Source of the DNA: Balanoglossus misakiensis
Taxonomy: Eukaryota; Animalia; Hemichordata
Reading direction: 5' to 3'
Length of the DNA stretch: 64,000 nt
Assembly (NCBI GenBank): GCA_040954595.2
Contig: CM082582.2
Coordinates: 12,917,777 to 12,981,776 of the forward strand
Both the position numbers and the translations under genes were made by a program. Below, piece by piece: positions 1-64,000 of the stretch. Below the pieces are notes generated by a model. It saw nothing but the letters and a program-made list of their open reading frames with translations. It did not search any database and was not told the DNA's origin. Within the stretch, counting starts at the first letter, position 1. Each line of letters begins with the position of its first letter.

Positions 1-273
1 CAGAACTAACAGCTCTGGCCAGAAACCAAAGAATGTAACCTTTTCCTCCAAACTGAACATTCCTCTCTTCCAGTCAAGAGACAAAGATATAAATATATAT
101 TTCAACAAGTTAAAGTGGCATTTTAATGATATAGCTTGAGAGTTTTTCATAGTTCTGTAATTTGTAAGATTTAGACTTCCGTTATCTTCTGGTTGTAACT
201 TGTTCACCCAGAAAGATGCATCCAATGCTTTCACAATGTTATAATCCATAATCATAACATTATTTCCCTGCAG

Positions 274-631
274 ATCCACTACAGTCGGGCTTCCAAAAGT
301 TAAAAAGGACAAGTTGTCCGTGTTCAACTTCTTGAGCACAGCATGGGAACAGCCAAGCCAACAGACGGTACAACAGACTGCTCCATCGTCTCAACTCGCT
401 CTGCCAGCGCCAGTGACTACCACTCCATTGAACCTCTTCTCCAACATCCCTGAGCAGAAACAGCCACCATCGGCATCAGGAACGACATCTGGAATTCCAG
501 CGTCTTCCCATGTCAAACCACCAAGTTTCATCAGTCATGGAATAGCATCACAGACTGATGGAGCATCGAGTGATAAGGTTGCTGTGGCAATTGCCTCCCA
601 TTCTTCCTTCGAAGGCAGCCAAGCAACAGAG
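274..631 (+). CDS. GPATCH1: GPATCH1 internal exon (STTVGLPKVKKDKLSVFNFL...QATE)
   Basis: Acceptor ttccctgcag ends at 273; donor GAG|gtaagt at 632; open frame matches ORF 314..673. Confidence 0.88.
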
Positions 632-9028: not shown

Positions 9029-9089
9029 ATGTGGTTGTCTGCTTGTGTGTTAGTAGCTGCCACGCTTGTGGCGTGGACCGATGCACAAG
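9029..9089 (+). CDS. Exon 1: signal peptide [20 protein letters not shown]
   Basis: ATG 9029, hydrophobic core, T-D-A|Q cleavage-like site, consensus CAAG|gtaagt donor in phase 1 matching the downstream exons. Confidence 0.85.
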
Positions 9090-11730: not shown

Positions 11731-11816
<86 letters not shown>

Positions 11817-11817
11817 T

Positions 11818-11906
<89 letters not shown>

Positions 11907-11907
11907 T

Positions 11908-11994
<87 letters not shown>

Positions 11995-14900
11995 AAAACT
12001 TTTCAAAGAACACTCTAACGATATCAGTACAAATACAGGGAACGCTGTACAAACACTGCGAGTGATTAAAACGTGACCTTTGACCCCAAGTAACTTTTGC
12101 CCATAGTCGATGCAGCGCCTGTAATGTTAGCGTCAGCTGATATTTATGGCCATGCTTCGACAGATATAGCTATTGACAGACGTTTTACTTGACGAAATAA
12201 GGTTAGTTGCAGAGACCATTTAGGCGAGAGTATGATTTTTAACCGTGAGCTTTGATGTTTGACCACACGGAAAGGCATTTATGATGGAGACTTCTCTCCA
12301 TCAATTATTAATGAATGTGCAACTAAAGTCCACATTTACAACGGACATGACCGACCTCTATTTTTGTTGTTATTAATTTTAACGAATTAAGAAACACGAA
12401 TATTGCTGATGATTATAAGTAGTCTACTTTATCACTTGTAAGACAATGCTCAACATTTCCTCCGAGTCATTCCGCAGTTGTAACATTTGGCTAAAAATGT
12501 ACATGGGATTATCCTTCTGTATATGTTAGTTTCGACCTGGCATCTTCATGGTTTAGAGGAATTGTCGGCCATTTAGCCACATTTTCCTCTTAAAACAACA
12601 TCACACGAAGTATACCCAACTGCAATGGATAAAATCCCGCAAAGGTGTATCAGGATGTTTTAGTCTAGAACCTAGCCTTCGTGTTTTGTGTGTGAGTGGG
12701 GAAAAGTGAAAAATACGAAGGCTTGCTTCGAGAGCACGTGTAGTATGTTGTCGTGTGCAGACAACATCACCTGGTACGTACGTCTACGTCAATGCAACGT
12801 CGTTCGCATTCTAGGCAACACTACAACTTGTCGCGTTCGGCATAGATTGTTTCTGCTGCACTTTCAATTAAACTTATTCTCCCACGATGACCGTATTTAT
12901 ATTTTATTTTGTTTGTGATTATTATTATTATTATTAATTTTTTGGTATCATCTTTGTATTCTAGTGACGGATCCATGCACCCCAAACCCGTGCCTCAACA
13001 ATGGATTCTGTACCGATATTGGCAACAACAACTTCATGTGCACTTGTGCCGGCTGCTTCTCAGGGACAATTTGTGAAAATGGTAAAACATCATTGTCATT
13101 CCATTTATAAATTATAGACCAGGTCTACAGTTCTCAAAGCTTAAAATGTATAGTCACCCTAAATTTACCTATGCCCATATATGGTTATTAAAGGCTTGTG
13201 ACATGTAAGTTGTGAAAGTCTGTGATTGGCTAGATTTCAACTTTCCATGGTAACTGGTTAAATTTGCATAGGTGACTATATTTCAGCTTGGAAACTGATT
13301 AAATTTGCAGACCTGACTTTTATACCTTTAACAATTGATGGTGTAGGTTTTTTAGTTGAATTAACTAGAAGTGGAACCTACCGGTAATTAATAAGAGATT
13401 CCAAAAGTATCACATCCATGGAAGTTTGGTGCGACATACTATGGAATTTTGAAAAAGTATCACATTTTCAAACTATGTTACTTTTCTTTCTGTATTCTCC
13501 GTGGTGATTTACATAATTCTATCTTCATATCATTACTGAAGACTATGATCAAGGACATGATGGGAAGGAAAGGTGATTTTCATACAGTCATTTTGATAAG
13601 ACTGCTTGCTTTCTGTTTATATTCACAGCCATTATAAACCCATGCAATGCCAATCCATGTCTCAACAATGGAGTGTGTCAGCTGACATCTTGTTCAACCT
13701 ATTCCTGTCAATGTAGTGGGTGCTTCACCGGACCAAACTGCCTGACCCGTAAGTGTACACCAACCCAATCTGATTAAAATCAGATGTAGGGAACGGCGAC
13801 ATGTTTTTTTTTATGCTGTCGCCTCAGGCCTGTAGGCGACAGCATAAAAAAACCATGTCGCCGTTCCCTACATCTGATTTTAATCAGATTGACACCAACC
13901 ATGACTACGACAATTGTCGTAAACCATGGCAACTGCTTCTAGCCTTGGTTTAGCAGACTTTCATTGGAGATCCTGGGGGCTATTGTAGAAAAAGAGCCAA
14001 TCAGAAAAGGCATCTCATAACACCTTTGGCTTGCCACCATGATGGCAATATACCAAGAGTAAACATGCACTGTATTGGAGACAAGTGATTGTCTAATTTG
14101 AATATCATGAATATTTAAATTCTCTTTTAAAATTGCAGTTTCTCATTCAAATCAGCCAGAGCTTTTTATTGGGTAGCATAGTGGAGTACATGTATAAGTA
14201 AAAGCTTTGGCTCTTGAGAATGGACTCTGATATAAATGCAGTTTGTGTGTACTGTAAAACAGGTTATTTTCGCGCGCAAAAAAAACATGAAAATAAAAGG
14301 TCGCAGTTTCAGACGGAATAGGAGAAACCATGGTAGCAAATTAAAAAGCTACATGCAATTTTCATATTGTATACTTGAGTAAACTTTCCCAATTGCCTTT
14401 GAAGGTGTTTCCCATTGAAACATCTATTGGGAAATGGAAAAGGATAATTAATATTACGATGCCTGACTTATGACTAAGCATGAATGAGCGCATGCGTATT
14501 CACTAACTATTACAGCTTGCAGTTCAACCTGTTAAATATTGTCTGAATAAAAGGAAAAGTCTCTGTACTGGTCTAATAGACCCTATAGCAGGATTTTCAA
14601 ACTCCAGTATTGATAGGTGCAACATGTATGTACAGGGCTGGTATCTTTGGGTTGGAGTACCGGTATATATTAAGATACTGTTTAATTTCTGGATCCATGA
14701 TGACTATCACAGTTGTGAAAATGATTGGATGGACAAGTTGTTACATTGTGTCAGTTTTGTTAATTACTTCACTGGTTGTCTCTATAGCTATTGCTGATCC
14801 CTGCTCTCAGAATCCATGTGGCATCCCTAGCGTTAATGGTCTGTGTTCAAGGGATATGATTCAGTGTACAACCTATTCATGTCAGTGTCTTGGGTGCTAT

Positions 14901-17900: not shown

Positions 17901-20900
17901 TGCAGGCTTAGCAGCTCATATTGCAAAGCTGCATGCTCGCTTGCAATGCATTAAAATGTTATTATCATTGTTATTTTCTTTAACTGTATTTCTTAGTTGA
18001 AAAGCAGTTATCGTACTAGTAGCAGAAAAATCTTGTGAAGATATTAAGCTCTGTGTATGTCTTTCAAAGTTCAACTTTTGAAAATTTCATACTCCTGTAC
18101 CTCAGAAAAAATGCTGTTGTTCGCTGTGCAGTGATAATGTAATTTAAACTTTATGCTATCATATTGTACTGTTACGTCAGCGTAAGAATTTTGGATGCAG
18201 CTCAGCTCGTTGTTTTATACATGTAACCCAAGTTTGATGTCTTTGTTTTCTAGGTGTTGACCCATGTACCAATCATGCATGTCAGAACAATGCACAGTGT
18301 GAGACTGATCCAACAGATTGCCAGCGCTATGTCTGTAATTGTATTGGTTGCTTTACGGGACAGTATTGTCAAACTGGTATATATCATTTCATATCACTTG
18401 ATTTTCATTTGGCGGGCTAACCCCCTCCCCAAAAACAACAACCTAACTAAACCAACTATTTTGTTGTGATTTTCTTGAATTCAAAATGGGTGTGTCCCGT
18501 CAGAAGAGTGAAAGGCCCAACATTCTCAGTCATCCAAAGAGTGTAATGCCAAAATTCAAAATGGCTCGTCCGTACAAAGGAGCTTACATTGAGAAACAAA
18601 TAAGAAATAGCATTCTTTAGTGTCGTCTGCAGACATACTTTATGGTATTTTCATCACCTCAAAGCATTCAACAAAAGTTAACTAGAAAGATATCATATTC
18701 TGGTAACAGATATTTTTGCTGCTTTTTTATTATTTCACAGAACAAAATGCTTGTACCAATAACCCATGCCAGAACTCCGGAACGTGTTTTCCCAATGGAT
18801 GTTCTTTACATTTCTGTGCCTGTCAGACCTGTTATTCAGGAAATAACTGTGAAATACGTTAGTCTTCATGATTTTTTATGATAAAATAGATTTGTGTCTG
18901 AGCACTCACTAATACACTGTTGTAAGTTGTGCAGTGAAAGTAATTTTTCATGCGCATCTGATGGGGCTAGCACTGGATGAGCAATATATGTTGGTACTGA
19001 GCTGACACTGGGCAAGCACCAAGCTATCACATGGTGTGCACCAAGGTTAAGCATTGGGCTACCACTAGCTTAGCACTTAAGCTGTTAGTGGATTAGCAGT
19101 GAACTATCACTGCACTATTGCCAGTTTAGCATTTGAATGATATTGGATTGAGCAGTGGGCAAGCATATTGAACTAACATTGGGTTAGTACTGGGCTAGCA
19201 ATATGCTGTCATTGTGTTATGGTGCTGGGCTAACACTTGGTCAGCCTTGATCTAGCAGTAGACTATCCCTGGGTAAGCTTTGGGCTTGCTTGGTACATTC
19301 GCAGTGGGTAAATCACTTGGCTGGCTTTGAGCTATGGATTAAAACTTTGTGCTGCACCATTACTTACTAAACACGGGTTGGCACATGGCTATCACTAGTC
19401 CAGTAGGAAACGCTTTCATTATTGAATTCAGTGGTGCGAGTCATAAGGTTAAGGATGGACAGCAGTTGTCTGTCATTGGCTTAATTAATCAGGTTTTCTG
19501 AATAAACAACCCTGTGAATTTTTATGAGCTTCCCAGCACAATTTTGCCTGCACAGAGTGCTATTAAATTAACAATCAAGCTTGTGTGAAATAGTCTCGGA
19601 AAAACACTAAAATATGAACAGCGAACTGTTCCCGTTTGACTGATTTCTGTCAATGGTATTCAGAGTGGTGTACTGAACCCTTCATCTTGAAAGACAATGC
19701 CACTTGACTGCAGATTCTATCATTTTCATCTTCAATCGTCTATAATTGTCATACCTTTATACTTTACAGTTCAAGATCCCTGCTCTAACAACTTCTGTCA
19801 GAACGGTGGACAATGTGTGGGTGTTCCAAATTCATGTACTGCCTACACTTGCACTTGTCCCCCGTGCTTCACTGGGCAGTACTGTCACACAGGTATAACA
19901 TGCAAACTTTTCATCCATACTGCAGACAAAGTTGAAATGTTTTATTCTTTACATTACAATGCATCAGAAAATTCACTTTCATGTTTGTCTGTGTTTCTTC
20001 ATCAATCGATCATGTGGTTTCCGTGATTTCTAGAACTAAACCATTGACTATTTTTTAAGTTAATCTAGTTTACAGGTTCTTACTCTCTGAAACTTTCAAG
20101 GACCTTCTTGAAATTAACCACTATTTCCGGGAACAAAATTACATCTTTTGACATTACTTTCGATAATTTCATTTTATTTTGTATCTCAAAGAAAACATAC
20201 TCTTCTCTAATGTTTACCGTTGAACACAATTAATATCTGAAATGTCGTGTTTCAGCCGTCAACCCTTGTGCTAATAACCTGTGCCAGAATGGAGCTGTCT
20301 GTATTGGGGTGCCTAACCAGTGTGTCCAATATGAATGCCAGTGTTCGGCATGTTATACTGGAACATATTGTGAACAGGGTTCGTAACACTTTCTAATATC
20401 TAGCTACCAGCTTAACAAGCATGGCAGATTTCTACCAACATGACTTATATATTAAAACATTCAGACAAAACAAAGTAACACTAAACAATTCGTCAAAATC
20501 AGTACTGTAGCTTTTACTCTCGGTCTAGATAATCTATCTATGAAATAATGACTAACTAGATAATATCTGTATTTACGTTTCTGTGTGTCTGTTATGACTT
20601 CTAAATTGTCAGCTCTAATGTTATCCAAGAGTCAAATCCGCAAGATACATGTATATGTTACGATTCCATAGCAAACTAAAGATTTTCTCCGGGAGTTGTG
20701 CAAAGTTTATATCATTGTGATATTCCTGTGTTCTGTCGAGATAAATTGCAGTGTAATATGGTGAGAATTAAACCCTGAAGTAGAGAATTTGAAAGCCAGG
20801 CTGTGTGAACAGTGAACAGAATTTTAGCCAAATATAATTCTCTCTCTCTCTCTCTCTCTCTCTTGTTACCTCTCTCCCTCAACAGCTCTAAGTGCATGCA

Positions 20901-23900
20901 CCAATCACATCTGTGAGAACGGTGCTGCTTGCATTCCTGTTCAGAATTCATGCACGCAGTACACTTGTAGCTGTGCGGGCTGTTTCACTGGTCAATACTG
21001 TAACATAGGCAAGTCTAGTGTCTCCAGTTCTTGTCTATTCAGATTTCATGGCAGATGGATTTTCGTACCTCAGAATTTACTATAAAATGGCATTTAATGA
21101 CAGAAGGTGTATGTTTTGTAAAAATAGAGATATACACTTGAGCTTGAACTGTATGCGAGGTACTGGACTCACTTCATAAAGCCATCGTATATTTTGTGAA
21201 CAACTTTTATAGAATGGATATTTTGAACTCACTGTTATCAATAGATTTTGTGTGATATGTGCTTGTCCACAAAATAAATTTGACATATATTGCAGTCCGT
21301 GTCAATTGCTGGGTTTGTAACCTTTTATATAATGTTCTATTTTCAACTCTCTAGCCCTTGACCAGTGCTCACCAAATCCATGCAATGGTGGCACTTGTAT
21401 CAGAACACCAAACTCTTGCAGTTCTTTCATTTGTCAGTGTTCTGGATGCTTCACTGGGCTGAATTGCCAGATACGTAAGTTTTATATCATGACTTTTACC
21501 CTTTCACTGCCATGGTTTAGTCCAAACCCATTGTTTTCTATGGCAAGGTTGGACCTCTATAGAGGGAACTAGGGGTGGAAGGGTTAAGTAAAGGCACTAG
21601 GAAAAGTTCATTTGCCAAGTGTGTTTCAATTGCAAAGATGGCACCACTTGGCAACACCTCCTTGTTTATAAGAGCAAGATAAACTGGAGTTAAAGCTACT
21701 GGGAAAGAGGTGTGAAAAAAGTTTGATATGTCATGAGGACATATATATCTTTAAAAGTTCATATTGTAATGTACATGACTTATTCCATGTAACTTCTTTT
21801 ATGGACTTGACTTTGTTCTATGTGCGTTGTTGGTTTTTTGTTGGTCTGTGTTGTGTTGTGCTGTGCTGTGCTCTGCAGTGCTGTGCTGTAAAGCTTTGTG
21901 TTTGCCATGTACATGTGATATTTAACTTAAGAACTTTGATATTTGTGATTGCAATTATTTTGCTGTGGTAATATTAAGATCAGTCTTAATTTGGGTTTGG
22001 GTGAACATGAGACTCAGTAACATAAAACTTAATGCATACATGTACGAGACAACGTCGCCAAGTTCTTCAAATAGACGAACAGGCGACTGATGGTCAGTCT
22101 CTGTCAACTTTAAATTTTGTACAGGACTATCTGGTGATGTTGGACTTTCTGTAGACTTTAACACAGTTACTGATCCTGTCAGTAATCTCTCTACATATCT
22201 GTACGTTCCATATGCATACATGTACCGGGTAAATGCGTATGACAAGGCGCGCGCCAGACAAAGCAACTGTACAATTTTGCAAAGAACCCTGTAAAGTGTA
22301 AAACTTGATTAACTTTGCTTTCAGCACAAAGCACTCTCTTAATATATACATATCCAATAAGTCTTGTGTGAAGTCTTTTCCACATAGTTCATGCCATAAT
22401 GGCAACTCTGATTAATGTCAGTTTGTTCAGTGGTGATACGATCCTTCTCTGACACTGTTCTTATCACTCACATCTACTCAGTATGTGACAGCTAACAGTG
22501 TTTATTTTCCCATTCTATCCCCTGTTTGAATCAGCAGAATAAAGTGAGAAGAAAAAATAATTTGAAAAATTTGTTTGCAAAAGCACTAGATGCAATGACC
22601 TGCACCATGTAGCCTGGTAAAACACGATATTATCAACAAAGCAGTGATGTACAATCACCAGGAATCAAATTCCTGCGCCTGAACTTTCTTACCTAGCTGA
22701 ACAAGTGCGTGATTCATTCCTTTTCGTACACTAGGAATATAGATTGTAAACTTTTGTTTATGTTTTCTTTTGACAGCGATAGACCCATGTGGTAACCATG
22801 GGTGTCAGAATAATGGTCGTTGTGTAGATGACACCACTCCTGGGGCTGCGTGTGATGCATATATCTGTCAATGTATTGGATGTTACAGTGGAACTTCCTG
22901 TGAAATACGTGAGTTTTGATGTACTCTAAGATAGGCAGTTAGTTAATTGATGTATATGTCTACAAACTTGTCCAAACACTAGTACATGGTATGAGGACTG
23001 TAAGACCAGGTGGTCCATTATTCTTTGATTTTCAAGTAATTTTCAAACAATTGCAATGCGACAGTATACACATGTGGGTAACAGTATACACATATTGACT
23101 GGCCATAAGGGCAACAGCATACGTCTGTAACCCGAGGGATTGTGAGTCAAAATAGTGTTGTGTGTTTATTGCAGTCTCTGATCCATGTGCCGCCAACCCT
23201 TGTATGAATGGAGCAACTTGCTATCCTCTCGGCTGTGCTAGCAGATTCTGTGCGTGCACCCCATGCTATTCAGGGGAAAATTGTCAAACATGTAAGTATA
23301 TTTTAGGAAATTTGTAACTGTCTTTTTGAATCAACAATTTCACTAATATGCTGAAAACATATTCTCTCTCTTGGAGAACCCATATTTCATTCTCTGTTAG
23401 TAAAGACCTGATGTTTTATTTTTCTTCACAGTGAATGACCCATGCGCGAATAGCCCTTGTCAGAACGGAGGCACATGTTCAATTTCACCTGTCAATTGTT
23501 TTGAATTCTCATGTAATTGTCCAGCATGTTACTCAGGACAAAATTGTCAGATAGGTAAGTTGACTTCATTTAAAGTGATCTTACAAGTATTATACAGAAA
23601 AACTTTTTAATTACTATCTTCAACAAGGGACGATGAATTCAAAATGGTGTAGAACTATAGTAATATGACTTTTTCTCCAATCAAAATAATCTGATAATTT
23701 CTTTCTTTCTCTCAAATGACATATGCAGTCTCTCTTTGCATTTTGTAAACTATATATACAGATGGCCACTAACACAGGTTTGACTGTATAACTGATACGC
23801 ATTCAAGCAAATACAATTTTTGAAATTTAAAACCGTTAATGTGTGTATACTTTCACCTTTCAGCTATAAATCCATGCCAGAATAACTTTTGCCAGAATGG

Positions 23901-44900: not shown

Positions 44901-47900
44901 ATTCTGTTTTTTTTTTCCTTGTACTGTCTCCTTTCAGCTACTTTCACAGCTTTGTCACTAAAGAGGGAAATGTCCATTTTGTTGTGTCAATCATGCTACT
45001 GACAATTCTCAGATATGCAAAACGATTTTCTAACCTGATCCAGTATGGTCTTCTTGTACCTTTTCAAATCATTATTTCCCTTGCTTTGCCAATGTGCATA
45101 TGTAGTGTTGAATCCCTGTACTGGTAACTTCTGTCAAAATGGAGCTGCTTGCGTTGCTGTGGCTGGTTCTTGTACGGAATATTCGTGTCAGTGTCCAGGT
45201 TGCTATACTGGACAATACTGTACAACATGTGAGTCTTTTCCTTTGCTGGTATGCTTTATAATGCTGTTTATGCCATTTTGCCTTAATTCCTGCTTATAAA
45301 AATAATTTAATCTTTTCTCAAGGCTTGTGCTTTAAGTTGACATTATTTTCTCTGCTTTGCTTTGCCTGCATACATAGTGCTGAACGCCTGCACCAATAAC
45401 TTCTGTCAAAATGGGGCTGCTTGCGTCGCTGTGGCCGGTTCTTGTACAGAATATACATGTCAGTGTCCAGGATGCTATACTGGACAATATTGCACAACGT
45501 GTAAGTTAGCTTAAGTATGCCTTGTCATTTAATTTAATGAGTAACATTTTAATGCACCATTAAATTATGTTTTTTTCCACATGAAAAGCAAAAGTCTTGC
45601 GCAACCTAATGTGTAAAATTTTTGTTTGCTTGTCTTTGCTCTTGCGTACATAGTGCTGAACGCTTGCACCAATAACTTCTGTCAAAATGGAGCTGCTTGC
45701 GTCGCTGTGGCCGGTTCTTGTACGGAATATTCGTGTCAGTGTCCAGGCTGCTATACTGGACAATACTGCACAACATGTAAGTTTCTTACATAATTAAGAA
45801 TGATCTTACTTATTTTTCAATCTTTTTGCTTTGCATTACAAGTAACACCCATAACTACAGGCTTAGAGATACTTCTGCCCTCGAAGCAGATTGATAGATA
45901 TACACTATGCAATGCTGTGTACGCGTAAGACATGTTCCTTTACCTGTGCTTATTATAATTGCATTCTTTTGCTTGTCTTATTTTGCCATTATTTTCTTTT
46001 GCTTTGCATGCATATATAGTGTTGAACGCTTGTACAAATAACTTCTGTCAAAATGGTGCTGCTTGCGTCGCTGTGGCCGGTTCTTGTACAGAATATACCT
46101 GTCAATGTACAGGTTGCTATACTGGGACATACTGTACAACATGTAAGTGGCTTGCATTTGATCAGTTGTTACACGTTCTGGACAGGATCAAGACTTACAC
46201 CATCTGGCACTTTCATGTTTTGGGGATTGTGTGTTCAGTGTGGACTTTGCATAATTTGTCACCAAATTGCACTCTCTTTGTAAACAGTGTCAATAAAACT
46301 TGCTGTTCACTTTTCTTACATTATTTCTTTCTCTTATTAATCATACATTTTGCGAAATAAGTTGAGACATATGACACTTTTGGATTAGTGTCAGAATTAC
46401 AGTTGATACCTATCACATTGATTGTAGGGAACCAGTATATTCTGGCAAAGTTACAAGTAGCAGTTAACCTGATTGTGTACTATATGCCACTTTCATCATG
46501 AAAAGTTATGTTTGTATAATCTTTGAAGTATTTCTGATGTATGTAAGAAATATGTATACAATGTCTATAAAGAATATGTAAAGAATGTTATGGTTTGTTT
46601 TCGTCTGCCCCAACGTTAACTTTCATCTGTGCTTTCAACTTTGTGATGGAAAATGTTTAATGTTTTGACTTCGGTATTTAACATACTTTATGGAAAAATT
46701 GGTAAGCTGGTGTGAGCTGTATGGAAAGGCTCTGATGATCACGTTGTCCACAATTGGACAGATATAGGGCATATTTATAGTATAGTTAAGCCTTTAACCC
46801 CAAACAAAATTGACTGACCCAGATTGATTGGGTCCAACAGCATCAAATTGTCAAGTCTGATAATGTTGTTTGTCATCAGTGTTAGATGCCTGTGCAAATC
46901 ACATATGCCAAAATGGAGGAGTCTGCAGTCCTGTTCCAAGTTCATGTACTGACTATACTTGTCAGTGTCCAGACTGTTATGTCGGTACCTACTGTGAAAC
47001 TAGTGAGTCGATCCTCGATGTTAGCACATTGGTAGTGTAACTGAGGCACATCATAATTATCAAATGCAAGGAAGTATTTGTATGTCACTACATCAACAGC
47101 AATGAAAAAGCACCACATACAATTAGAGTGTCACATATGCCAGACCACAATTAAGTCACATGGAAAGCAGCAGCAATCACATGTAAATTAAGCAGCGTAT
47201 CACATGCTGTACAACCTGTGCCTAGCCCCAAGTGACATGTGTCATGTACCTTACCTGATCAGCTGTACCAGTAGTTACATTATAGCTCTGGGCAGTTTTG
47301 TGCCATCTGCACTTTATTGCTTTGAACTCATCACTCTTAGCTTACCAGCATAATACCAGGCATATGTTAGGCATAATAAATGTAACTTTTGGATATGTTT
47401 GCTATATATTCTTTAGAAAAGATTATCGAAAATGATGTAAAGGTGTGAAGTATTAGTTGTAGTTAGATAATAGCTCCAGATAGTTTTGTGACATCTGCAT
47501 TTTATTGGTTTGAACTCATCACTCATAGGTTACCAGCATAACACTAGGCATATGTTAGGTATAATAAATGTAACATCTGGATATTTTTGCCACACATTTT
47601 TTTAGAAAAGATTATCAAAAATGATGTAAGATCTTTAACACCAATAATAAAACTCTAGAAATAGTCTTTTTATCACTAGAACTAGAATTTTTAAAAATGG
47701 TGGAATGAAACTGCAAAATGAAGCTAAATACCTTGAATAACTGGAATACTTAGAGAACGAATGTTTTGGGTGATTCAGTTTAGTTAATTAATGGAACGTT
47801 CATGTTAGTGCACATCTACCACAACTAATACTTGAATGAAACTGTATACTACAGTGTTGGATGCATGTACTGATAATCAGTGTCAAAACGGAGGTGTCTG

Positions 47901-50900: not shown

Positions 50901-53900
50901 TCCTGTACTGCCTACACCTGCATCTGCACTGGTTGCTTCACTGGACAGTTCTGCACCCAACGTAAGTCTTTGGCGGTAGTTACCGTGTGGTAAGAGAAAA
51001 GCGTCAGGGCTCTGTAATTTTCTGTATGTGTTGTTCGCAGTATTTCAGTGTTTAAACATTTGTCAGTTGTGCCATCTGATTATATGAAAAAAGAAATTAG
51101 ATGTTACCAAAAGCCCATAATAGTTTAAACCTATTAACTCAGATCTGTCTTGTCCTTATAGAAATTGATGCCTGTGCGAACAATCTTTGCCGCAATGGAG
51201 CAGCATGTATACCTTCTGTTGGAAACTGCTATTCTTACACCTGTCAATGCAGTGGTTGTTATTCTGGTGATTACTGCCAAGATGGTAAGATTTTTTTTTC
51301 TCTCTCTCCTATGAATAAAAGTATGCTACTTCTTGTCTTGACTGTCCTTCTGACTGTTCCATAGATGTCTACAGGATTCTTGTTGTAGAGGTTGCGGACA
51401 ACAATTGGAACAACTCTACCAGTTATACTTTTAATTGCATCTCTGTATTTGACAGAGATTTTCTGACATATCTCTCTGTTTTCACAGCAATCCAAGCATG
51501 TGCTGATAATCCATGCTTGAATGGAGGTCAATGTCAAGCGACCGGTGTCACTTGTACAACATACAGCTGCATCTGTCCACGATGTTACACTGGTCCCACG
51601 TGTGCTCTCGGTAAGAGTTTGTCACACCACTTGATACGTAACTCACTGTGATGAGCCGTCGTACAAAGTTCCATTCCTATATCCACAGTCACAGCAACTG
51701 CCAAATAGTCTGTTTCATACCCAACTCAAAGTTCATTCTGCTCATATAAAGCAATAGCAATTGAACCAATTAAAGCATCAGATGGTGAATACTACAGAAA
51801 GTTTGTGGGGTAATCTGTGCTTTGTGAATTTTGTATTTCACCATGCAAGGAGAATACTAGTAATACAGATGTACACAACATTTTAGAAAGTGTTACTTGA
51901 TTTCAGCATTTCTTATTCTCTTCTAAATCTTCCTTACTAGTGTTGAATCCATGTTCTGTTAACCCGTGCCAAAATGGTGGAATATGTACACCAGATCCAT
52001 CAGACGCAACATGTAACAGCTTTATCTGTCAATGTACTGGCTGTTATTCTGGAACCCGATGTGAAATACGTAAGTACAAGGAGTATAAAAAAACAACCAG
52101 TATCCGTCATTGTCTCTCAAATTCATGCCTCTCAAATCTTCTTCTACGTCTCTCTCAATGTTCCATCTTGCTTCTTCACTACTTCACCTGTCCTTTCAAA
52201 TTCAGTCTTCCCTGGTGTTTAATTGTTCTTCTATCAGGAAGGACATTCAGATATAGTCAACTGCATTGTATGCATGCTTGCTTGCTTGCTGCTTTAATGC
52301 TAATGATAAGTTTTGTTTCAGCTGTTCAATTGCTGCTTCTTTCCGCAAGCAAATTCTGATTTTTGCCGTTTAATTGTGTTCTCAAGGTGAATGGAGACAG
52401 AGATGCCGTCTTCATCCAACAGCATTTGTGTCCACCACTTTTATAACACTCATCTCATCAGTGTAATTGCTATCAGGAATCTTTGCTACTGCAATTCTAA
52501 TTGCTTTAATTGTTGGTACTAATTAGTAGATGGCTTCTTAGTTTTCAGAGCTGCGGTCTAACACTGCATGGGAAAAAATAGGTGGCAGTAATGCTCGATT
52601 CAAGAAATATGCAATATGTAACGTATATTATATATCCAAGAATAATTAATGGATACAGGCATGCTTGCTTGCTTTGATATCGTCATCTTTTCCCCCTGGC
52701 TCTGTAGTACTGCACATTAGGCTGCATGATCATGTAAGTAGAATGCTTGGCTGCAGTGGCTGTGCAAACAGATATCTGCATGTAGGTAGAGCAAAAGATT
52801 TTTCGAACTATTTCAACAAGCCACAAGTGATTGATTTACCTAGGAACCGATAACCAGTGCACCAACAATCCTTGCCAGAATAATGGTTTCTGTCAGTCGT
52901 TGGCTGGCTCCTGTGAAGCCTACACATGTATCTGCATTAATTGCTATGCTGGACATAACTGTGAAATGAGTAAGTATTAATTATCGATTACTTGAGAAAA
53001 GATTAGCAGTGTAATGCATGGAAATAGATTTCTGATTGTCATCATTGAAACTTATGCATCTGTCTGACAGTGTTTGAAGTTGTCATTCAACTAATATTTG
53101 CTGTTTGAAATTCAATAATTGCAGCCTGTAAGCTTACTTAAGAATTCACAAATAGTCTGAATGATTATTGCCGAAACTGATTTTTGTGTGTGTTTCTGTG
53201 TATAGTGGTGTCATCTCAGTGTGATGTCAACCCATGCCAGAACAATGGTGTATGCACAGCATTGGAGAATTCCTGCAATGAATATTCCTGTTCCTGTGTT
53301 GGTTGTTTCCAAGGACAAAACTGTGAAACACGTAAGTATTTTTGAGAAGTTTCATTATGTTTCTGCTACAAATGCCAATCACTGATTAGAATGCTTTGAA
53401 TCTGAATGCAAATTGGTACAAATCGAAACATATGAGAGATCATATGCAATGTTCCTTCACATATCATATGTTGTGAACTTTCTGCAGCAATACCAGACCC
53501 ATGTGCCAACAACCCATGCAGTAATGGTTTGTGTCAACTGGTCGCAGGCTCCTGCACTGCATATAGTTGCATATGTACAGATCCATGCTTCTCTGGAACT
53601 AGCTGTCAAATCCGTAAGTTAACTTCAATTTCATGACTACTTTGTGACCTTACACCTTGATATTTTGATTGGACAAGAGTGAAACAGTTTTCTGAAACAA
53701 TCTACCCATATTATTTCTATTCCATTCCATTGTACAGGTTCGTTCATACATTCATTTATTCATTCTTTCCAACATTCTTCCGTTGCCAGGACAAGACCCA
53801 TGTGCATCAGCAAATCCATGTTTGAATGGCGGTGCCTGCTTTGCTATGCCTGGCTCTTGCACACAAATGGTCTGTCAATGCAGTGGTTGCTGGAGTGGAA

Positions 53901-56900
53901 ACAACTGTGACATCCGTAAGTGCAATTCTGTTGATACAAAGTACTGACTCTGAAGAGAAATATACAAAATTACAAGATTAAATGTTTTGAGAAACAAGAA
54001 AACAATTCATCTAAGCCATTAACAAAGAGATCATCACCATTTCAACTGTTCTGCTCTATCATAATTTTGCCTGTAGGTTGAAGGTTTTTGAAATTGTTCA
54101 AAATACAATGTATGTGTATCTTGAATGAAGTTTGGTGATTAGATTTGATTTGATTTGATTTCAGCATCTAACAATCAGTGTGTCAACAATCCATGTGAGA
54201 ATGGAGGCTTCTGTCAGCCCAGAGAAGGGTCATGCAATGCCTATGACTGTGTGTGTACATCATGCTATTCAGGACCTAGGTGTCAGTTTGGTAAGCTTTA
54301 ATTTATTGTTTAATCCAGTGGGTGGGTGGGAGCAGGTTTTTTGGTGTATGGATAAAATGATTGATTGATCATTTGATTGATTGATGGATTGATATGATGA
54401 ATTAAGTTTATTAAAATTGATATGTTCTTTGAATGCATTTATGCATTATAAACGGATGCATTCATGAACATTTGTCTTCTTATTTTTCACTATTTTTACA
54501 GTGTTCAACAGAGTCTGTGAGACAAGTAACCCATGCCAGAATGGTGGAGTCTGCATCCCAGACACTGAATCTTGCTTTGGTTATCAGTGTTTCTGCCCTG
54601 GATGTTTTGGAGGTGCCAGATGTGATCAATGTAAGGGAAACAAGATTGCAGAATTTTCATATGCTATAAACTTTACATTCAAGCTATTGTTGAGAATTTA
54701 TGGGAACATTTTTTCCATTCAATATACAGTGCCCCCAGTATTGCTTATATTTCTGTAATGTGTAACCGTGGAAAGAATTACATTGTACATACAGTGCATG
54801 TTTGGTAAAAATTGATCATTCCTTTTGTCTCTCCAACAGTCCAACAAACGCAATGTGCAGATAATCCGTGTCTTAATGGTGGCACCTGTGTACCTGAGCC
54901 TAACTCCTGCGACGCATACACTTGCAGGTGTCTGTCGTGTTTCAGCGGTCCATTATGCCAATTTGGTGAGTATAGAGTTACATAAAGCTGCCGTCAAAAA
55001 GATGTATTGGTCTTGCATGTAACAGTGCCAATCTGAAGTTTTGCTGTACCCTCATGGCCTTTGTTAATAAATATGCAATATATGTGCATACTGTTTGCCT
55101 TGTAGGGCACCAAGTCTGCAACAAAATTCACATGTATTAATGTAACATTTCCGTGTATTTGGTCAACTCAACAGCTCTCCAGCCACAGTGTGTTGATGAA
55201 CCTTGTCAAAATGGTGGAGCCTGTGTGCCCGTTCCTGGTTCATGCACTGCTTTCACTTGCACATGTGCCGCATGCTGGACTGGCGAAGTATGTCAGATAC
55301 GTAAGTAGAAATAAATATAGTTGATGAATCTGCAGATGTCATACTAATGGATCAACAGTAATGATCATCTATTTCTGTCTTGCATTGTGTACACTTCGTG
55401 TATAATTAAAACTCCCATTTTACAAAGTAGATATAACATAATATCAACTGCACATGAGACGGTAACTTTGATCTGCGGCCGACAAAGCATCACAGTGGTG
55501 ACAGCTCCACGTCGATTTAATATTGCGTCAAATTGGTTCATACAAAATGCAAAGACAAAAAGACAGTGATTCATGACATAGACTATAAGGATTAGAACAC
55601 ATCTGGGACATTGAAATTTATGTCAAAATCTGATACTAACCCTTAAATCGCGGCTTTAATGAAGCACAAAATAAACTTGCCGCAAACAGATTATTCCGTC
55701 CAGTTTTTGCTCGACATCCAGTCCAGTTTCCACAGTACATGTAGACAGACAGGTTTTTAACACATGTATGACGTCCATGGGAGTGGGCAGGACTGAAAAA
55801 ATCGTTCAGGTTGAAAAGTGTTTTAAACCTAGTTTAATTCCTGTCAGACTTGTGTGTTTCATTTGTGTTCTAAACATGTACAGAAAGTATTTTAGTAAAC
55901 ATGTGTGAAACGTAAGTGTTTACTTGTTTTAAACCATATTGTTTTCAACACTTTTGGAAGTTTGTTAACATACTCGGAGGAGAGAGGGGATATATCAGGA
56001 CGGCAGGCCATACACATATTGAATGTTTGTTTCCACTGAAGCATATAAAGTATGCAACAGAAAAGGGAAATTTTCCTGCATGCTTTTTTAAAAGTCAAAA
56101 GCGCAGCTTTTTAACTTGATGAATTTTACATGTACAGTAAATACCTGCCGGAACCAAACCACGTAAAAAACTGCAATTTCAATCATACTAATTGCTACTC
56201 TATAACAGGTCAAATGGATCAATGTTTGGCAAATCCATGTCAGAATGGCGGTGTCTGTACTCCAGTGGAGGGTTCCTGTGTTGCCTACACCTGTGCCTGT
56301 CCAGCCTGTTATGCCGGTCCATTGTGTCAATTCTGTAAGTTTACAATTGTTATTTCTAATGATCATATTGTATAAAGTGTCTGTGTCACCATGTGTGTGC
56401 ATTCATGCATCAACATGTCACCATAATGTACAATGTACATATCTGTGTGTAATCCATCTTTTGAATGTAGCAATTATAAAATTGTATCTCATCATCATTC
56501 CTATGATGACAGATTTGCTTTTGCCACTTTTCTGACTTAAATGTAATATAGGTCCAGAAACTATAAATAAAACATCATTCAACTTTTACATGCGATGATA
56601 TTTTTTGCTCTAACTTTAATTACTTTTACCTCTTCAGTCTTGCAGACACAGTGTCTGTCATTGCCATGTCTGAATGGAGGGGCATGTGTTCCAGTGGCTG
56701 GTAGTTGTACTGCATTCTCCTGCACTTGTACCAGTTGTTTCTCTGGAACCAATTGTGAGATAGGTGAGTCAGTTGTTTTATGATGTAATCAATCACAGAA
56801 TTCTACTCTACACCCAGAATTATATCGTCGACTTGTATTCGTTTATGAATTCGGATGATTTGATAGACTTTTCAATTTCTCTTTATTACATAGCTGTCAA

Positions 56901-59900
56901 CAACGCATGTGTGAACAATCCATGCCAAAACTCGGGTGTGTGTAGACCATCTTCTGGATCGTGTGTTGCCTACAACTGCGAATGTCCAAGTTGTTACTAT
57001 GGCGGTCACTGTCAATTCTGTGAGTACAAGTTTTTATTTCAGGAGGCAAAGATGTTCTAGTATTCCTTTGAAGTGTAAAAAGTTTGTTGTGAGGTTTCAT
57101 CTAAATGTAAAACTATTGATGTTTTGTATTGTATGGTATGTGTTGATATAGAATAGCCTGAAATTTACTTTTTATGTGGTTGTTGAATGCTCCCAACATG
57201 GATGTGGCATTCTTTAGAGTGTGATCCTTCTTTCATTTTTTGTCTAAACATTGTTTTTTTTTTCTTGCTGAATTTGTTGCAGTTGTTGCACAGCAGTGTC
57301 AACAGAATCCTTGCCAGAATGGTGGTGTGTGTATTGCTGTACCCGGTTCCTGTAATGACTATACATGCCGATGTAGTGGATGCTATACTGGACCAAACTG
57401 TCAAACATGTAAGAAGATTAACTAAACCCTGTTTATCCCAGAACAATATATATACTGTTGTGTGTGTTTGGCGTAAGTGCTAGCTTTCAGAGAAGTCAAA
57501 TTTTATGGGAATCCAACTGTGGTCACAACAGCCATTTACACTAAGTTCTGTTCTCGGCATCAATGACTTAACTTCCTGATCTAGTTCTCTGCTAATATAT
57601 TATAAAGGAAAATGGAATGTGTTACCAGTAATTTATGGACAGGTTTCCATAACTTGAGCATCTGTTGACTGTTTCTTTTCAACCACAGATAGCCAGAATG
57701 CCTGTACTAACAACCCTTGTCAGAATGGTGGGGCGTGCATTCCGAGTTCCACCAACTGTCAAGTCTACACATGTCAGTGCCAACAATGCTATCGAGGATA
57801 CGATTGCCAGTTCTGTAAGTACATATGTCCTTTTCCATTTTTATTAATCCTTAGAAAATGGTGATGTGTTAAAGGTAAACAGTCACTTCCAATATACCTA
57901 TGTATGGCTACAATGGTCTTCAAATGTGTTAATTGGTGCACTTATTTTTTCACGTGTGTCACCCACTGAACATGTGGTTTTTGATGTATCATAATATATG
58001 TTATCTGTATTTGTGTAGTGGTGCAAACCCAGTGTGCACAGAACCCGTGCCAGAATAATGGAGTATGCATAGCCAGTCCTAACTCATGTACAAGCTTTGT
58101 TTGCCAATGCCAAGGGTGCTTTACAGGACCAACCTGTGACACACGTAAGTAGTATAAAGAGATCTGTTATCAATCTTCTGAAAATTGTAAAACTCAAGAT
58201 GAATTATCACTGCTTTAATTTAACTGGATGATTTTTGGAGAAAATGACAGCTACTGCCTCATGGCTTGATTCATGATGTTGTTGTTGTATGTATTCTAGC
58301 AACCATAGTTATGGTTATTGTGCAGTCCACATAATTTTCATGTTGTCAATCTCTCTGTAGCAATTGCTGATCCATGTGCACCTAACCCTTGTATGAATGG
58401 TGGAAACTGCATGCGAAGAGGTTCCTCTTGCACTGACTACGTCTGTTCATGTCCGTCATGTTTCACAGGACTGCAGTGTCAGACAGGTCAGTTACAGATA
58501 ACCTTATCATTTCAAAACATTTGTATCTTGAATCAAACTACTAGATATTAAGTCCATGCAGTATTGCTACATTCATAGTGATTCCATTCCTAGAAATTGT
58601 ATATGTTACATTTGATTTGAGGTCCAATTACTGAATTGTGTTCTGAAACTAGGTTTTCCATGCGTCAAAATACTTTTAAACATTTCTCCTAAATACCATG
58701 ACAATATTTGTTTCGTATAACGACCATAGAAAAAGAAACATTGATGAACTGTTATGTTGTTGCTGACATTGTTTTCTCAATTCTGTCTTTTATACCACAG
58801 ATATTACCTGGATAAATATTCAGTGTCGATAGTATTTTGTATTAGTTTCATAATTTTGCATTATAAACTTGCTTCATCTATTGGTAGTATAGTTCGCCAC
58901 TAATCAAAATTGTATTTGTCATGTTTATCGACATATTGAAAAATTGCCTTTAAGTTTTATGATTTCACAGCATATTAGTTGCATTTTACTTCAGGTGTCA
59001 TATTTCCTGCATGTCATGAAAAGACAGACAAAATAATATTGCATTATTTTATATTGCTTTTTTCCAGAATAATAGACTCTACCTATGTAAGTAAAGATGG
59101 TGACCTGCTTGTAATGCAGTTTCAATTATCTTTTAGATTACAGCGATGAAGAAGCATATTGGTAATTTAGTGACCAGAATTGAAAATGTTTTCATTTACT
59201 TTTGTCTTAACATAATAATTATTTATTTTCATATATAAATTATGTTATATGTGAAGCTCAAGGATAATGGTTTATGCCATCGCTGTTTACATCTAGTCTG
59301 ATATCTGTCATTCTGATCCTATCTTTCTTGTCTTTTCTCTCATTTCTAAATCACTTAGTTCATCACTTCACCATCTGCAAGTATGTGTGTGTGCATGCAT
59401 GTATATGTTCATTCTGTTTGTATATGTGTATGTGTGGAAATTGAAAGAAATACCAGGGACACTTTGGAAAGAAGTGTTTCATTGCTTACCCTGCAGTATC
59501 TTCTCTTTCTAGTTATCAATGCCTGTGATAATAACCCATGTCAGAATGGTGCTGCATGCACTACAGTGACTGGTTCCTGCACCTTCTATACATGCTCTTG
59601 CATAGGCTGTTACAGTGGAACAAATTGTGGTACTCGTAAGTCACACATTTGGGTTTGCTATGCTTTCCTTTTTTATTTTGCTTTATTTTGATATTCTTTG
59701 CTTTTTTTTAGTGCAAGGTCCTGCCTTGTAATCGTGCTCAGAAAAAAACTTCAAAACGATATAAAAATATGATGCTTAATGCTTCTGCCAATGCTGCTTC
59801 TGTATTTTTATAGCTATTGCCGATCCTTGCCTTGCTAACCCATGCCAGAATGGTGGTATTTGCTCTAGAGTAGCTGGTACTTGCACACAATATTCTTGTA

Positions 59901-62900
59901 GTTGTCCTGATTGCTTTGTGGGACCAAGCTGCCAGTTTGGTAAGTTGCCTCCTCTCTTGGAATTGTCTTGTCTATTGCCACCTACTAGTAACTTTTTCCA
60001 TACTGTCCAGACTAACATCTGTTTGTTATGACCATCATTTCAACTGCGTCTTCACTTTCCCTCATATATGGTCTATAAGCCCTTATCCTGTCCAGACTCT
60101 ATGGCACTGTTGGTGATTAACCATTATCCTGTCCGAACTCTATGACACTGTTGGAGGAAACCTAGAACACCATTTTTGTTATTGTTAACTCTGCCAATAC
60201 TGGAGATCTCACTCTGTGAATCCAAGACTGATCTTGTTTATCAGGGATTGTGAAAGTGGAGAGGACAGAAGTCCAGCCAAGAGACAGCTACAAACGTTGA
60301 CAGCCATGTCATTCATCCTATCAGTTACAGAATTCAGTTCTTGATGTACTTCCAGAAGTATCACCGAAGGGCAAAACATCGTTAACAATCACAATTTCCT
60401 CCACAAATTTTCTTCTTCAGGTGTATCTGGGATCAATGTCTATCTGTCAGATGTATCATAAGAATTTCTACTCATCCATCACATGTGATGTGTTTTCCTT
60501 TACACGTATTTCAACTCTTATTTTACTTGATGTAACTATCTTTACCTTTTTTCTTTCTTCTTTTGATGTGTGTAGCACTCACAAATCCCTGTATTAACTC
60601 TCCCTGTATGAACGGTGGTGCTTGTTCACAAGTGAGTGGATCCTGCTCACAATACCAATGCACATGTACTTCATGTTTCCGTGGTCCTAATTGTGAATCT
60701 GGTATGTATTTCTTTGACAAACATAACTGAAAATAGTTCATATGTCAATTTCTTCATGTACTTTAAATGGACAAAGAGGCATTAAGTGCTGTGGCTAATT
60801 TTTGATTGTGCATGTTTGGCAGGAAACCCTCGTTTCCCAATACATGTGAAGCGCAGTTGGCCACTTATGAATCCCGGTGTTGTGTACACCGAGTTACAAA
60901 CCTAGTTCTCTTTTGTTGCTATAACATGAATTGTTTGTGACTGAAAAACAATCACAGCAAAATGTATGAGCATAAAGTGTGATAAAAGTCACTCACTGCC
61001 CTGTTTATGGTGTACATTTCAAAAGTGAACTTGGCTGAAGCTCTTGTCATTTATTTTCAGCAATACCCAGCCCATGTCAACCAAATCCATGTTTGAATAA
61101 CGGAGCCTGTTCTGTCAGTCCCAATGATTGCTACACTTTCGTCTGTACATGTCCATCAGGATACACTGGAAGTCATTGTCATATCAGTAAGTGGAAATAA
61201 ACATTCAACACACACATTTAATAAATATTAAATGCCAGAATTTCACACCAAGGGAACCAATAAACAGTTTTCTGTGTAGAAGGATGAACTTTGAAAAAAA
61301 TGATTGCATGGCTGAAATATGTCTTTGCACATGTTCTGTGGCAGTAACATCAATTTATTTCAAATTTACGCACTTAAGCCCAGAGAATACAGCATGTCCA
61401 AGACAAAAGTAACACATTTTATTGCAATATCAGTTTACACTGACTGATTTTTTCCCTTTGTGATACAGCCATCAACGCTTGCACCGGTACTACATGTCTG
61501 AATGGTGGTACTTGCATCCCAACACAAACTGGATACTCTTGTCAGTGTGTGACAGGTTACACAGGAACCAACTGTCAGACCAGTAAGTCACAGTGTTTTT
61601 ATTTCTTTATCTGTTGTCATCTGAAAGTCATTTGCTATTGGTAGTTTCCTCTCTGAAAAGAATGGGCAGATAAAAAAATCATGTAAGTTGTACATTGCGA
61701 AAATGTTATTTCCTGAATAACTGATCCCCCTCATAAGTGCTTGTGTAAAATATCAGCCACACTAAACATCCATTTTTGTGATTTTATTCTTTACAGTTGT
61801 GGCAAACCCATGCAACAGCAGTCCATGTCAGAACGGTGGTGCCTGCCAGAACTTGCAAACATCATATCAGTGTGTATGTCAACAAAACTACATTGGAACA
61901 AACTGTGAAATCTGTAAGTTGAGATGACAACCTCTTGAATATATGTAGTAATTGCTATAAGTTTTAAGTCTTGCTGTGAGAGAAACTTAGTGACTGTTAG
62001 TGACTACTTTCAGTGTCTTTATAGAGGCACAGTGAAATACACAAATTGAAACCATGTTTTATCTTGTTGATAAATTTAATATATGATTGTAGCGACTAGC
62101 ATGCCGAGAAAAGGTAAATTATCTTTCTCATAAATATGATCAAAGTTTATCTGTATTCACCCTATTTTAATCCTTCATGTTTGTGATTATTTATGTCATT
62201 TTGTCTGTTCTGTGTTTCCTGCAGACATCTTCAGTCCATGCAGTAGCAATCCTTGTATCAATGGTGGAACCTGTCTAAATCTTAACAACGCGTATATCTG
62301 CAACTGTCTGCCGCAATTTACAGGCGACAATTGTCAGACTGGTATGTATTGCTTTAACACTATTGTACACATTTTTCTACAGTACTTGGAGAGGTGTAGT
62401 CATTTGCAAAATCAAATATTCTTTATTTAAACTGTCAGTGTTATGTAATATATTTTCCAGGTGTCACTCTCAATCCATGTGCTACTAATCCATGTTTAAA
62501 TGATGGTACTTGTGTTGCAACCAGTACAACATCTTATCGGTGTCAGTGTCTATCTGGTTATACTGGATCAAACTGTCAAACTGGTATGTGAAAGAAAATA
62601 TTTACATTGCCACATAAGAAAATTACTTTTACTCTTTAACTTTGTTCATACCATGTTATCTTTAACATGTTTTTGTGAGTGAGAAATTACACAAAGTCAT
62701 CCTAACCACAGTTGTCTCTAATACAACACAATATCACAATCTTCTTTGATGGAAATATGACGATAACAAGTGTGCAGTGTTCTGCTAATGTCATTTCTGT
62801 GTTTAATTCAGTAATTACCAACCCGTGTGCTAACAATCCATGTTTGAATGGTGGTAATTGTGTGGTCACTAGCACAAACACTTATCAATGTCAGTGTCCA

Positions 62901-63975: not shown

Positions 63976-64000
63976 AAACAGTTCTGCTGAAAGTATAGTT

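What the first reader, a model, noticed from the sequence alone, without database searches (positions are those of the whole stretch)
12965..61186. Daisy-chained EGF rod: complementary 7-Cys caps imply a disulfide from domain n to domain n+1 across about 105 modules
Seen: each of 103 consecutive EGF exons has two extra Cys. CysA lies in the C3-C4 hairpin, five residues before C4 (typically C-x-x-[YF]-x-C). CysB replaces the Gly of C5-x-x-G-[YF]-x-G. The module before the run (12965-13081) has CysB only, the module after it (61061-61186) has CysA only, and all EGFs outside have the normal 6. Established: in Notch and fibrillin EGF pairs, the aromatic residue between C5 and C6 of domain n packs on the hairpin turn of domain n+1, so CysB(n) and CysA(n+1) sit at that interface. 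Laminin LE and integrin I-EGF modules place their fourth disulfide elsewhere. Inference: CysB(n)-CysA(n+1) pairing leaves no free thiol and gives 104 inter-domain bonds, whereas intra-domain pairing leaves two orphan Cys that happen to be complementary. This predicts a covalently locked extracellular rod a few hundred nm long (assuming about 2.5-3 nm per EGF). I do not know of a described example, but I could not search.
Basis: partly seen in the sequence, partly recalled or inferred. Interest (0 to 1): 0.93.

Follow-up and report, generated by a model that had tools for sequence, protein, structure and literature searches.

The report
Disulfide-chained EGF array, hyalin family
This giant gene, most likely from an echinoderm, has 105 EGF modules in a row whose spare cysteines come in matched neighbour pairs, so each module is likely bonded to the next into a covalently chained fibre, a linkage shared in shorter form by hyalin-like proteins of its relatives.

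Summary
Homologues support the inter-module bond. Among 8,768 distinct neighbouring EGF pairs in 455 proteins, CysB(n) came with CysA(n+1) 150 times, alone 4 times. 29 of 32 eight-Cys runs from echinoderms and hemichordates start B-only and end A-only. Six isolated B-A pairs (five from rotifers) have no 8-Cys module, which excludes pairing within one module. The gene is a hyalin-like family member (CUB 50% identical) whose ancestral B-X4-A cassette expanded to B-X103-A. The bond itself is inferred: S-S distances could not be measured, no RNA run was listed, and rigidity is only partly supported. It is not without precedent: the integrin I-EGF 1-5 bond also ties the hairpin to the end of the previous module, but through a different cysteine. 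Ten paper searches found no description. The scan earlier noted a different clasp (DSL-EGF) on other DNA, not this one. Verdict: new variant of a known kind; interest 0.62.

The parts
9029..9089 (+). First coding exon, signal-peptide-like, 20 residues, phase-1 donor
   Evidence: Hydrophobic 20-residue reading followed by GTAAGT; in frame with the rest. No signal-peptide predictor was run.
10759..10890 (+). N-terminal 6-Cys EGF-like exon
   Evidence: No Pfam hit on its own. Hyalin-like relatives also have a Cys-rich EGF-like module before the CUB.
11017..11397 (+). CUB domain exon of the hyalin-like type
   Evidence: PF00431 E 2.1e-08; 50% identical over 126 aa to the N-terminal CUB of Lytechinus variegatus 'hyalin' P0173.
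12965..13081 (+). Start cap: 7-Cys EGF with CysB only
   Evidence: Best score against the B-cap profile of the hyalin-like cassette, by a small margin (39 vs 37 bits).
13629..60701 (+). 103 phase 1-1 exons, each one 8-Cys EGF module (CysA and CysB)
   Evidence: Most score best against inner positions X1 or X3 of the cassette.
20886..21008 (+). 8-Cys exon with a non-canonical GC donor (GCAAGT)
61061..61186 (+). End cap: 7-Cys EGF with CysA only
   Evidence: Best score against the A-cap profile (53 vs 41 bits next best).
61469..63806 (+). Seven ordinary 6-Cys EGF exons; the gene continues beyond the window
   Evidence: PF00008 E 1e-08 for 62227-62340; no stop reached.

Best explanation
The gene encodes a signal-peptide-like start, EGF, CUB and then 105 EGF modules in which the spare cysteine of the C5-C6 loop of each module (CysB) likely bonds to the spare cysteine at the hairpin turn of the next module (CysA), giving 104 predicted inter-module disulfides. 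Shown: the cysteine pattern, the caps, their conservation in relatives, the absence of most of the calcium-binding consensus, and family membership by the CUB and the cassette. Inferred: the bond replaces calcium as the lock on the usual aromatic-hairpin interface. Under tension the load would then run through only about 11 residues per module, which would cap extension at about 4.4 nm per module instead of 6.5 nm. The product would be an extended, stretch-limited extracellular filament of roughly 260-320 nm (rise per module recalled), acting as a spacer or tether in an apical matrix. Because every inner exon is phase 1-1 and carries one CysA and one CysB, inner modules can be gained or lost without leaving a free thiol. 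That would explain the lengths seen: 2, 3, 4, 6 and 103 inner modules.
For: Covariation across 8,768 distinct adjacent pairs in 455 proteins: both 150, CysB alone 4, CysA alone 18, neither 8,596 (pairs are related, so the P value overstates it). In the 402 proteins with no 8-Cys module, 6 of 10 CysB modules are followed by a CysA module against 18 of 8,434 others (Fisher P 5.6e-14), and 0 of 12 CysB modules are preceded by one. These six B-A pairs (Seison 4, Brachionus 1, one unnamed ENA protein) use a gap of 3, not 4, before C4, which suggests a second origin. Caps occur in sea urchins, sea stars, brittle stars, sea cucumbers and two hemichordates. [quoted passage not shown] The AlphaFold2 model of the L. 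variegatus cassette (pLDDT 86.5) puts CysA in the loop between the two hairpin strands and CysB at the exit sheet. Its first three modules superpose on the near-linear Notch1 EGF11-13 at 2.8 A over 116 residues, Z 10.0. The three spacings on the predicted load path are nearly fixed while C3-CysA (4-9) and the linker (6-8) vary. Path lengths are; calcium consensus counts are.
Against: Global model confidence is low (pTM 0.38), and five modules fit Notch1 EGF20-24 only at 6.5 A, so straightness is weakly supported. Three of 32 runs break the rule. P0075 ends without an A cap (a lone Cys follows). Partial P0085 ends in a 9-Cys module before a plain EGF. P0224 starts without a B cap. Two sea-urchin proteins (P0270, P0271) have CysB with no spare Cys in the next module, and 18 CysA-like modules have no CysB before them. 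Most of the 29 conforming runs are orthologues or paralogues of one cassette, so independent cases are few. Non-calcium EGF pairs can be rigid but bent by 70-90 degrees (PMC4826273).
Confidence: 0.85

Rival explanations
1. The same two cysteines bond between chains: CysB(n) of one molecule to CysA(n+1) of a parallel partner, making a laddered dimer or fibre.
For: Cysteine counts and caps fit this equally well. Interchain EGF bonds exist in teneurins (recalled). Hyalin molecules aggregate head to head (PMC2289348 abstract).
Against: The two positions meet at the normal interface within one chain, and strict next-neighbour order in the isolated B-A pairs needs no second chain. An in-register ladder of 104 bonds would need a fixed twist per module, yet hairpin and linker lengths vary.
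Confidence: 0.07
2. The spare cysteines stay reduced or bind metal (C4-x-C5-x-x-CysB resembles a CxCxxC motif), or serve thiol exchange and cross-linking to other matrix proteins.
For: The CxxC spacing holds in 102 of 103 modules. Lone spare cysteines occur in EGF arrays, for example in Notch-type proteins P0076 and P0155 and in P0270 and P0271.
Against: It does not explain why CysA and CysB numbers match with a one-module offset in 29 of 32 runs and in 6 isolated pairs. 208 free thiols in a secreted protein would be unusual (general knowledge).
Confidence: 0.05
3. CysA and CysB pair within one module (or the core bonds are rewired), and the caps are leftovers.
For: 110 of 112 window modules have both cysteines or neither. 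Laminin-type modules close their fourth bond C-terminal to the EGF core (PMC2725086 passage).
Against: The six isolated B-A pairs contain no module with both cysteines. CysA and CysB lie at opposite ends of an extended strand in the model (read from secondary structure). The caps are conserved from echinoderms to hemichordates.
Confidence: 0.03

Closest known systems
Integrin beta I-EGF modules (1-5, 2-4, 3-6, 7-8)
   Same: Eight cysteines; a fourth bond from a cysteine between EGF C3 and C4 to the end region of the preceding module, for example beta3 C473-C503 (passages of PMC3601072 and PMC12383024).
   Different: The integrin partner follows the last Cys of the previous module. Here it lies inside the previous C5-C6 loop, and no junction residue is Cys. 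Integrins have 4 modules; this array has 105, with a longer Notch-type hairpin.
Notch / fibrillin calcium-binding EGF arrays
   Same: EGF fold, 6-residue linker (86 of 111 junctions), aromatic residue four after C5; best structural matches are Notch1 fragments.
   Different: Rigidity there rests on calcium plus packing (PMC4826273). Here [DN][EQ] before C1 occurs in 5 of 111 modules and D/N at C3+2 in 5 of 111; two extra cysteines take its place.
Echinoderm proteins annotated hyalin or hyalin-like (e.g. XP_041472953.1)
   Same: N-terminal EGF-CUB (CUB 38-51% identical) and the B-Xn-A cassette followed by plain EGFs.
   Different: Relatives have thousands of residues of HYR-containing sequence before a cassette of 3-4 inner modules. 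Here the CUB is followed directly by the cassette with 103 inner modules, and no HYR match was found in the window. The names are database annotations; identity with the hyalin purified from embryos (75-nm filament, PMC2289348 abstract) was not tested.
Fibropellins
   Same: Order signal-EGF-CUB-EGF array (recalled).
   Different: The fibropellin-annotated proteins with CUB or avidin domains retrieved here (P0050, P0098) parse with no spare-cysteine modules, and their CUBs are not among the hits at E 1e-3.
Laminin LE modules
   Same: Eight-cysteine EGF variant in rod-like arrays.
   Different: The extra bond is C-terminal to the EGF core (PMC2725086 passage); here exons end two residues after C6.
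Drosophila Dumpy
   Same: Giant matrix protein of more than 300 EGF repeats (PMC2930355 passages).
   Different: Built of EGF-DPY-EGF triads; no inter-module bond was mentioned in the passages read.

Membership tests
EGF-like domain (PF00008) | Six core cysteines with EGF spacing and fold | tested here: met
   Six core Cys invariant in 103 of 103; caps pass the Pfam cut-off, two inner modules tested fall below it (14.5 and 16.6 vs 21.5 bits); the relative's model matches Notch EGFs.
Calcium-binding EGF | D/N-x-D/N-E/Q before C1 and D/N two after C3 (consensus recalled) | tested here: not met
   D/N at C1-2 in 89 of 104, but C1-1 is P or A in 89 of 104 and C3+2 is D/N in 2 of 104.
Integrin I-EGF | Extra cysteine between EGF C3 and C4 | tested here: met
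   CysA in 103 of 103.
Integrin I-EGF | Its partner lies just after C6 of the previous module | tested here: not met
   No cysteine in any linker; the partner candidate lies between C5 and C6.
Laminin LE | Fourth disulfide C-terminal to C6 | tested here: not met
   Both extra cysteines lie before C6.
Hyalin-like HYR/EGF proteins | N-terminal EGF-CUB of the family type | tested here: met
   50% identity, E 3.6e-37 in a local search of stored proteins.
Hyalin-like HYR/EGF proteins | B-Xn-A cassette followed by plain EGFs | tested here: met
Hyalin-like HYR/EGF proteins | HYR repeats | tested here: inconclusive
   No HYR match inside the window; the 3' end of the gene lies outside it and no genome is held.
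Hyalin-like HYR/EGF proteins | C-terminal membrane anchor seen in several relatives | not testable with these tools
   The gene runs off the window.
Fibropellin | C-terminal avidin-like domain | not testable with these tools
   The gene end is outside the window.
Fibropellin | Fibropellin-type CUB and 6-Cys EGF array | tested here: not met
   The CUB hits hyalin-like proteins, not the fibropellin-annotated ones retrieved; 8-Cys modules.

The most novel reading that the evidence does not exclude
A previously unnamed EGF class, the chained EGF, in which a CysB(n)-CysA(n+1) bond replaces calcium to lock modules in series. It is old in Ambulacraria (a fixed cassette in hyalin-like proteins), arose again as single links in rotifers, and here forms a calcium-independent, covalently stiffened filament about 0.3 micrometre long whose length can be tuned exon by exon.
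Probability: 0.5. Interest if true: 0.78.

Novelty: new variant of a known kind. Interest (0 to 1): 0.62.

Why it matters
It adds a third way, beside laminin LE and integrin I-EGF, of giving an EGF module a fourth disulfide, and this one would tie modules together in series over an unusually long run. It gives a natural test of how EGF arrays gain stiffness without calcium and a ready design for stiff or stretch-limited protein spacers. It also shows an overlooked conserved element in hyalin-annotated proteins, and a rule (CysB then CysA) for reading 'odd' cysteines in EGF repeats, which are usually taken as unpaired.

Tried and rejected
No whole genome is held, so the gene end could not be read. 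No RNA holder was listed for window 56100-64000; this says nothing on expression. Folding two neighbouring modules of the relative P0173 as separate chains gave no verdict (score 0.00, alignment not used). Model coordinates were not in the script box, so S-S distances were not measured. PDB sequence and fold searches returned ordinary Notch, ligand and coagulation-factor EGFs; no listed entry was recognisable as carrying this link, and integrin chains were not listed, which does not exclude them. The ESM Atlas gave only generic EGF clusters, best score 0.86. Ten paper searches found no description of this module; most subscription journals are not covered. Wouters et al. 2005 (EGF classes) and Mor-Cohen et al. 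2012 were not held; my memory that the former calls the laminin and integrin fourth bonds 'interdomain' is recalled only. No supplements were opened. Rejected: a frame or low-complexity artefact (clean splice sites, open frame, both Cys codons); recent copy homogenisation as the cause (only 7 of 103 exons reach 0.88 or more to a neighbour); fibropellin membership. Dropped before the 29-of-32 count: P0217 (not an EGF), single 'B' calls in P0045, P0179 and P0418 (misparsed), and identical isoform copies. The split runs of P0112 and P0443 were each counted as one run by eye, because an inner 9-Cys module broke the parser.
Full report
Observation. A splice-aware scan found 112 EGF exons with AG/GT ends: 102 with eight cysteines, 2 with seven and 8 with six. 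CysA is five residues before C4 in 103 of 103, CysB three after C5 in 102 of 103, and an aromatic residue follows CysB in all. From 12965 on, the order is B, 103 X, A, then seven plain modules. There are 104 CysA and 104 CysB, matched with a one-module offset at 111 of 111 junctions. Both Cys codons are used at both positions, and nearest-neighbour exon identity is mostly 0.55-0.75, so selection keeps the pattern.

The gene. Upstream lie a signal-peptide-like exon (9029-9089), a 6-Cys EGF exon and a CUB exon (PF00431). The 115-exon model is open for 4,794 codons and runs off the window. The CUB is 38-51% identical to the N-terminal CUB of echinoderm proteins annotated hyalin, mucin-like or uncharacterised, and does not hit the fibropellin-annotated proteins retrieved. 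Those same proteins carry a B-X4-A (sometimes B-X3-A) cassette after long HYR-containing regions. Profiles of each cassette position assign the window's caps to the B and A positions and most inner modules to X1 or X3. No HYR match was found in the window. The gene is therefore a family member that lacks the N-terminal HYR block and has expanded the middle of the cassette. An echinoderm origin is inferred from these relatives.

Test in homologues. Three homologue searches and one profile search gave 455 proteins (plus isoforms). Among 8,768 distinct adjacent EGF pairs, CysB(n) with CysA(n+1) occurred 150 times, CysB alone 4, CysA alone 18 and neither 8,596. Of 32 real runs with 8-Cys modules, 27 parse as B-Xn-A, and 2 more do so apart from one inner 9-Cys module. 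They come from sea urchins, sea stars, brittle stars, sea cucumbers, the hemichordates Ptychodera and Glandiceps, and one unnamed source. Three do not conform: P0075, P0085 and P0224. Most conforming runs are one homologous cassette, so I repeated the count in the 402 proteins with no 8-Cys module. There 6 of 10 CysB modules are followed by a CysA module, against 18 of 8,434 others, and none of 12 is preceded by one. These six two-module links (Seison nebaliae 4, Brachionus calyciflorus 1, one unnamed) cannot pair inside a module. Their CysA sits one residue closer to C4, which suggests an independent origin. Of the four lone CysB cases, two bdelloid proteins have an extra Cys beside C1 of the next module and two sea-urchin proteins have no visible partner.

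Structure. [quoted passage not shown] CysB is the residue just before that aromatic. An AlphaFold2 model of the L. variegatus cassette (16 sequences, pLDDT 86.5, pTM 0.38) has CysA in the hairpin loop and CysB at the small exit sheet. Three modules superpose on Notch1 EGF11-13 at 2.8 A and five on EGF20-24 at 6.5 A. The window's modules lack most of the calcium consensus.

Mechanism. Shown: the pattern, the caps, the covariation and the family. Inferred (0.85): 104 intrachain disulfides CysB(n)-CysA(n+1) that lock the normal interface without calcium. A graph of peptide and disulfide links (3.8 and 5.5 A per link, assumed) gives a maximal length of 457 nm with the links and 680 nm without; the path uses 1,155 of 4,325 residues. 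The spacings on that path are the near-invariant ones. A folded length of 260-320 nm rests on a recalled rise per module. Whether the chain is a straight rod, a shallow helix or only hinge-restricted is open; I put a stiff extended filament at about 0.55-0.6 given the bond. A role as spacer or tether in an apical matrix is inferred from the family; hyalin is a 75-nm filament with cell-binding sites (PMC2289348, abstract only). Symmetric exons that each carry one CysA and one CysB allow length change without free thiols.

Comparison and novelty. Integrin I-EGF modules pair 1-5, 2-4, 3-6, 7-8, the 1-5 bond being specific to them, and beta3 C473-C503 spans the EGF1-EGF2 junction (passages of PMC3601072 and PMC12383024). 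That is the same hairpin end with another partner, so the principle is known and this position, to my searches, is not. Laminin's extra bond is C-terminal (PMC2725086, passages). Dumpy (PMC2930355, passages) and CREMP (PMC12723725, abstract; flexible linkers) are giant disulfide-rich repeat proteins with no such link in what I read. PMC9382459 (passages) notes tandem EGF and HYR domains in sea-star adhesive proteins without this pattern in those passages, and PMC9322447 (passages) added nothing. Ten searches of the open library found no description; subscription papers are largely missing. The scan's notes hold one analogous clasp, between DSL and EGF domains in another genome, which I did not check; sequence and place look-ups were empty.

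Verdict. Real, conserved and well supported by covariation; a new variant of the four-disulfide EGF. The bond still needs direct proof, and the rigid-rod claim is weaker than the bond. Interest 0.62.

Noticed in passing
window 272-2330, + strand: Last exons of an upstream gene with the stretch EEERPSMDLFKAIFED and a His/Lys-rich tail. It resembles the GPATCH1 C-terminus (label recalled; Pfam gave no significant hit).
   Followed up: partly
window 11731-11993: Long GATA/GACA tetranucleotide microsatellite in the intron between the CUB exon and the B cap.
   Followed up: no
window 13781-13892: Inverted repeat of about 45 bp arms in the intron after the first 8-Cys exon, possibly a small transposon remnant (read by eye).
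   Followed up: no
window 40517-46142: A local cluster of recently duplicated exons (modules 57, 65, 66, 69-72; 0.88-0.93 nucleotide identity to a neighbour), showing the array still grows.
   Followed up: partly
window 52844-61186: The modules near the 3' end are mostly 126-nt exons with 7-residue linkers, and many score closer to X4 or the A cap; the array has a 5'-to-3' gradient.
   Followed up: partly
P0251 (Brachionus) about 2522-2567: A spare Cys in the linker after C6 followed by a hairpin Cys in the next module: an integrin-like 1-5 arrangement in a Notch-type EGF array.
   Followed up: no
P0085 (Anneissia japonica, partial): An adhesion-GPCR model (7tm_2) that begins with 8-Cys modules very like the window's (68% to one module); a chained-EGF stalk on a receptor, or a gene-model fusion.
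   Followed up: partly
P0178 (Glandiceps), P0188 (Ptychodera): Small hemichordate proteins of the form FN3, B-X6-A, hydrophobic segment: the cassette makes up most of the ectodomain and would be a convenient construct.
   Followed up: partly
P0237, P0239, P0224, P0112, P0443: Several paralogous cassettes carry further spare cysteines (CxC after C1, or CC at C3), sometimes in two different modules, hinting at additional long-range bonds.
   Followed up: no
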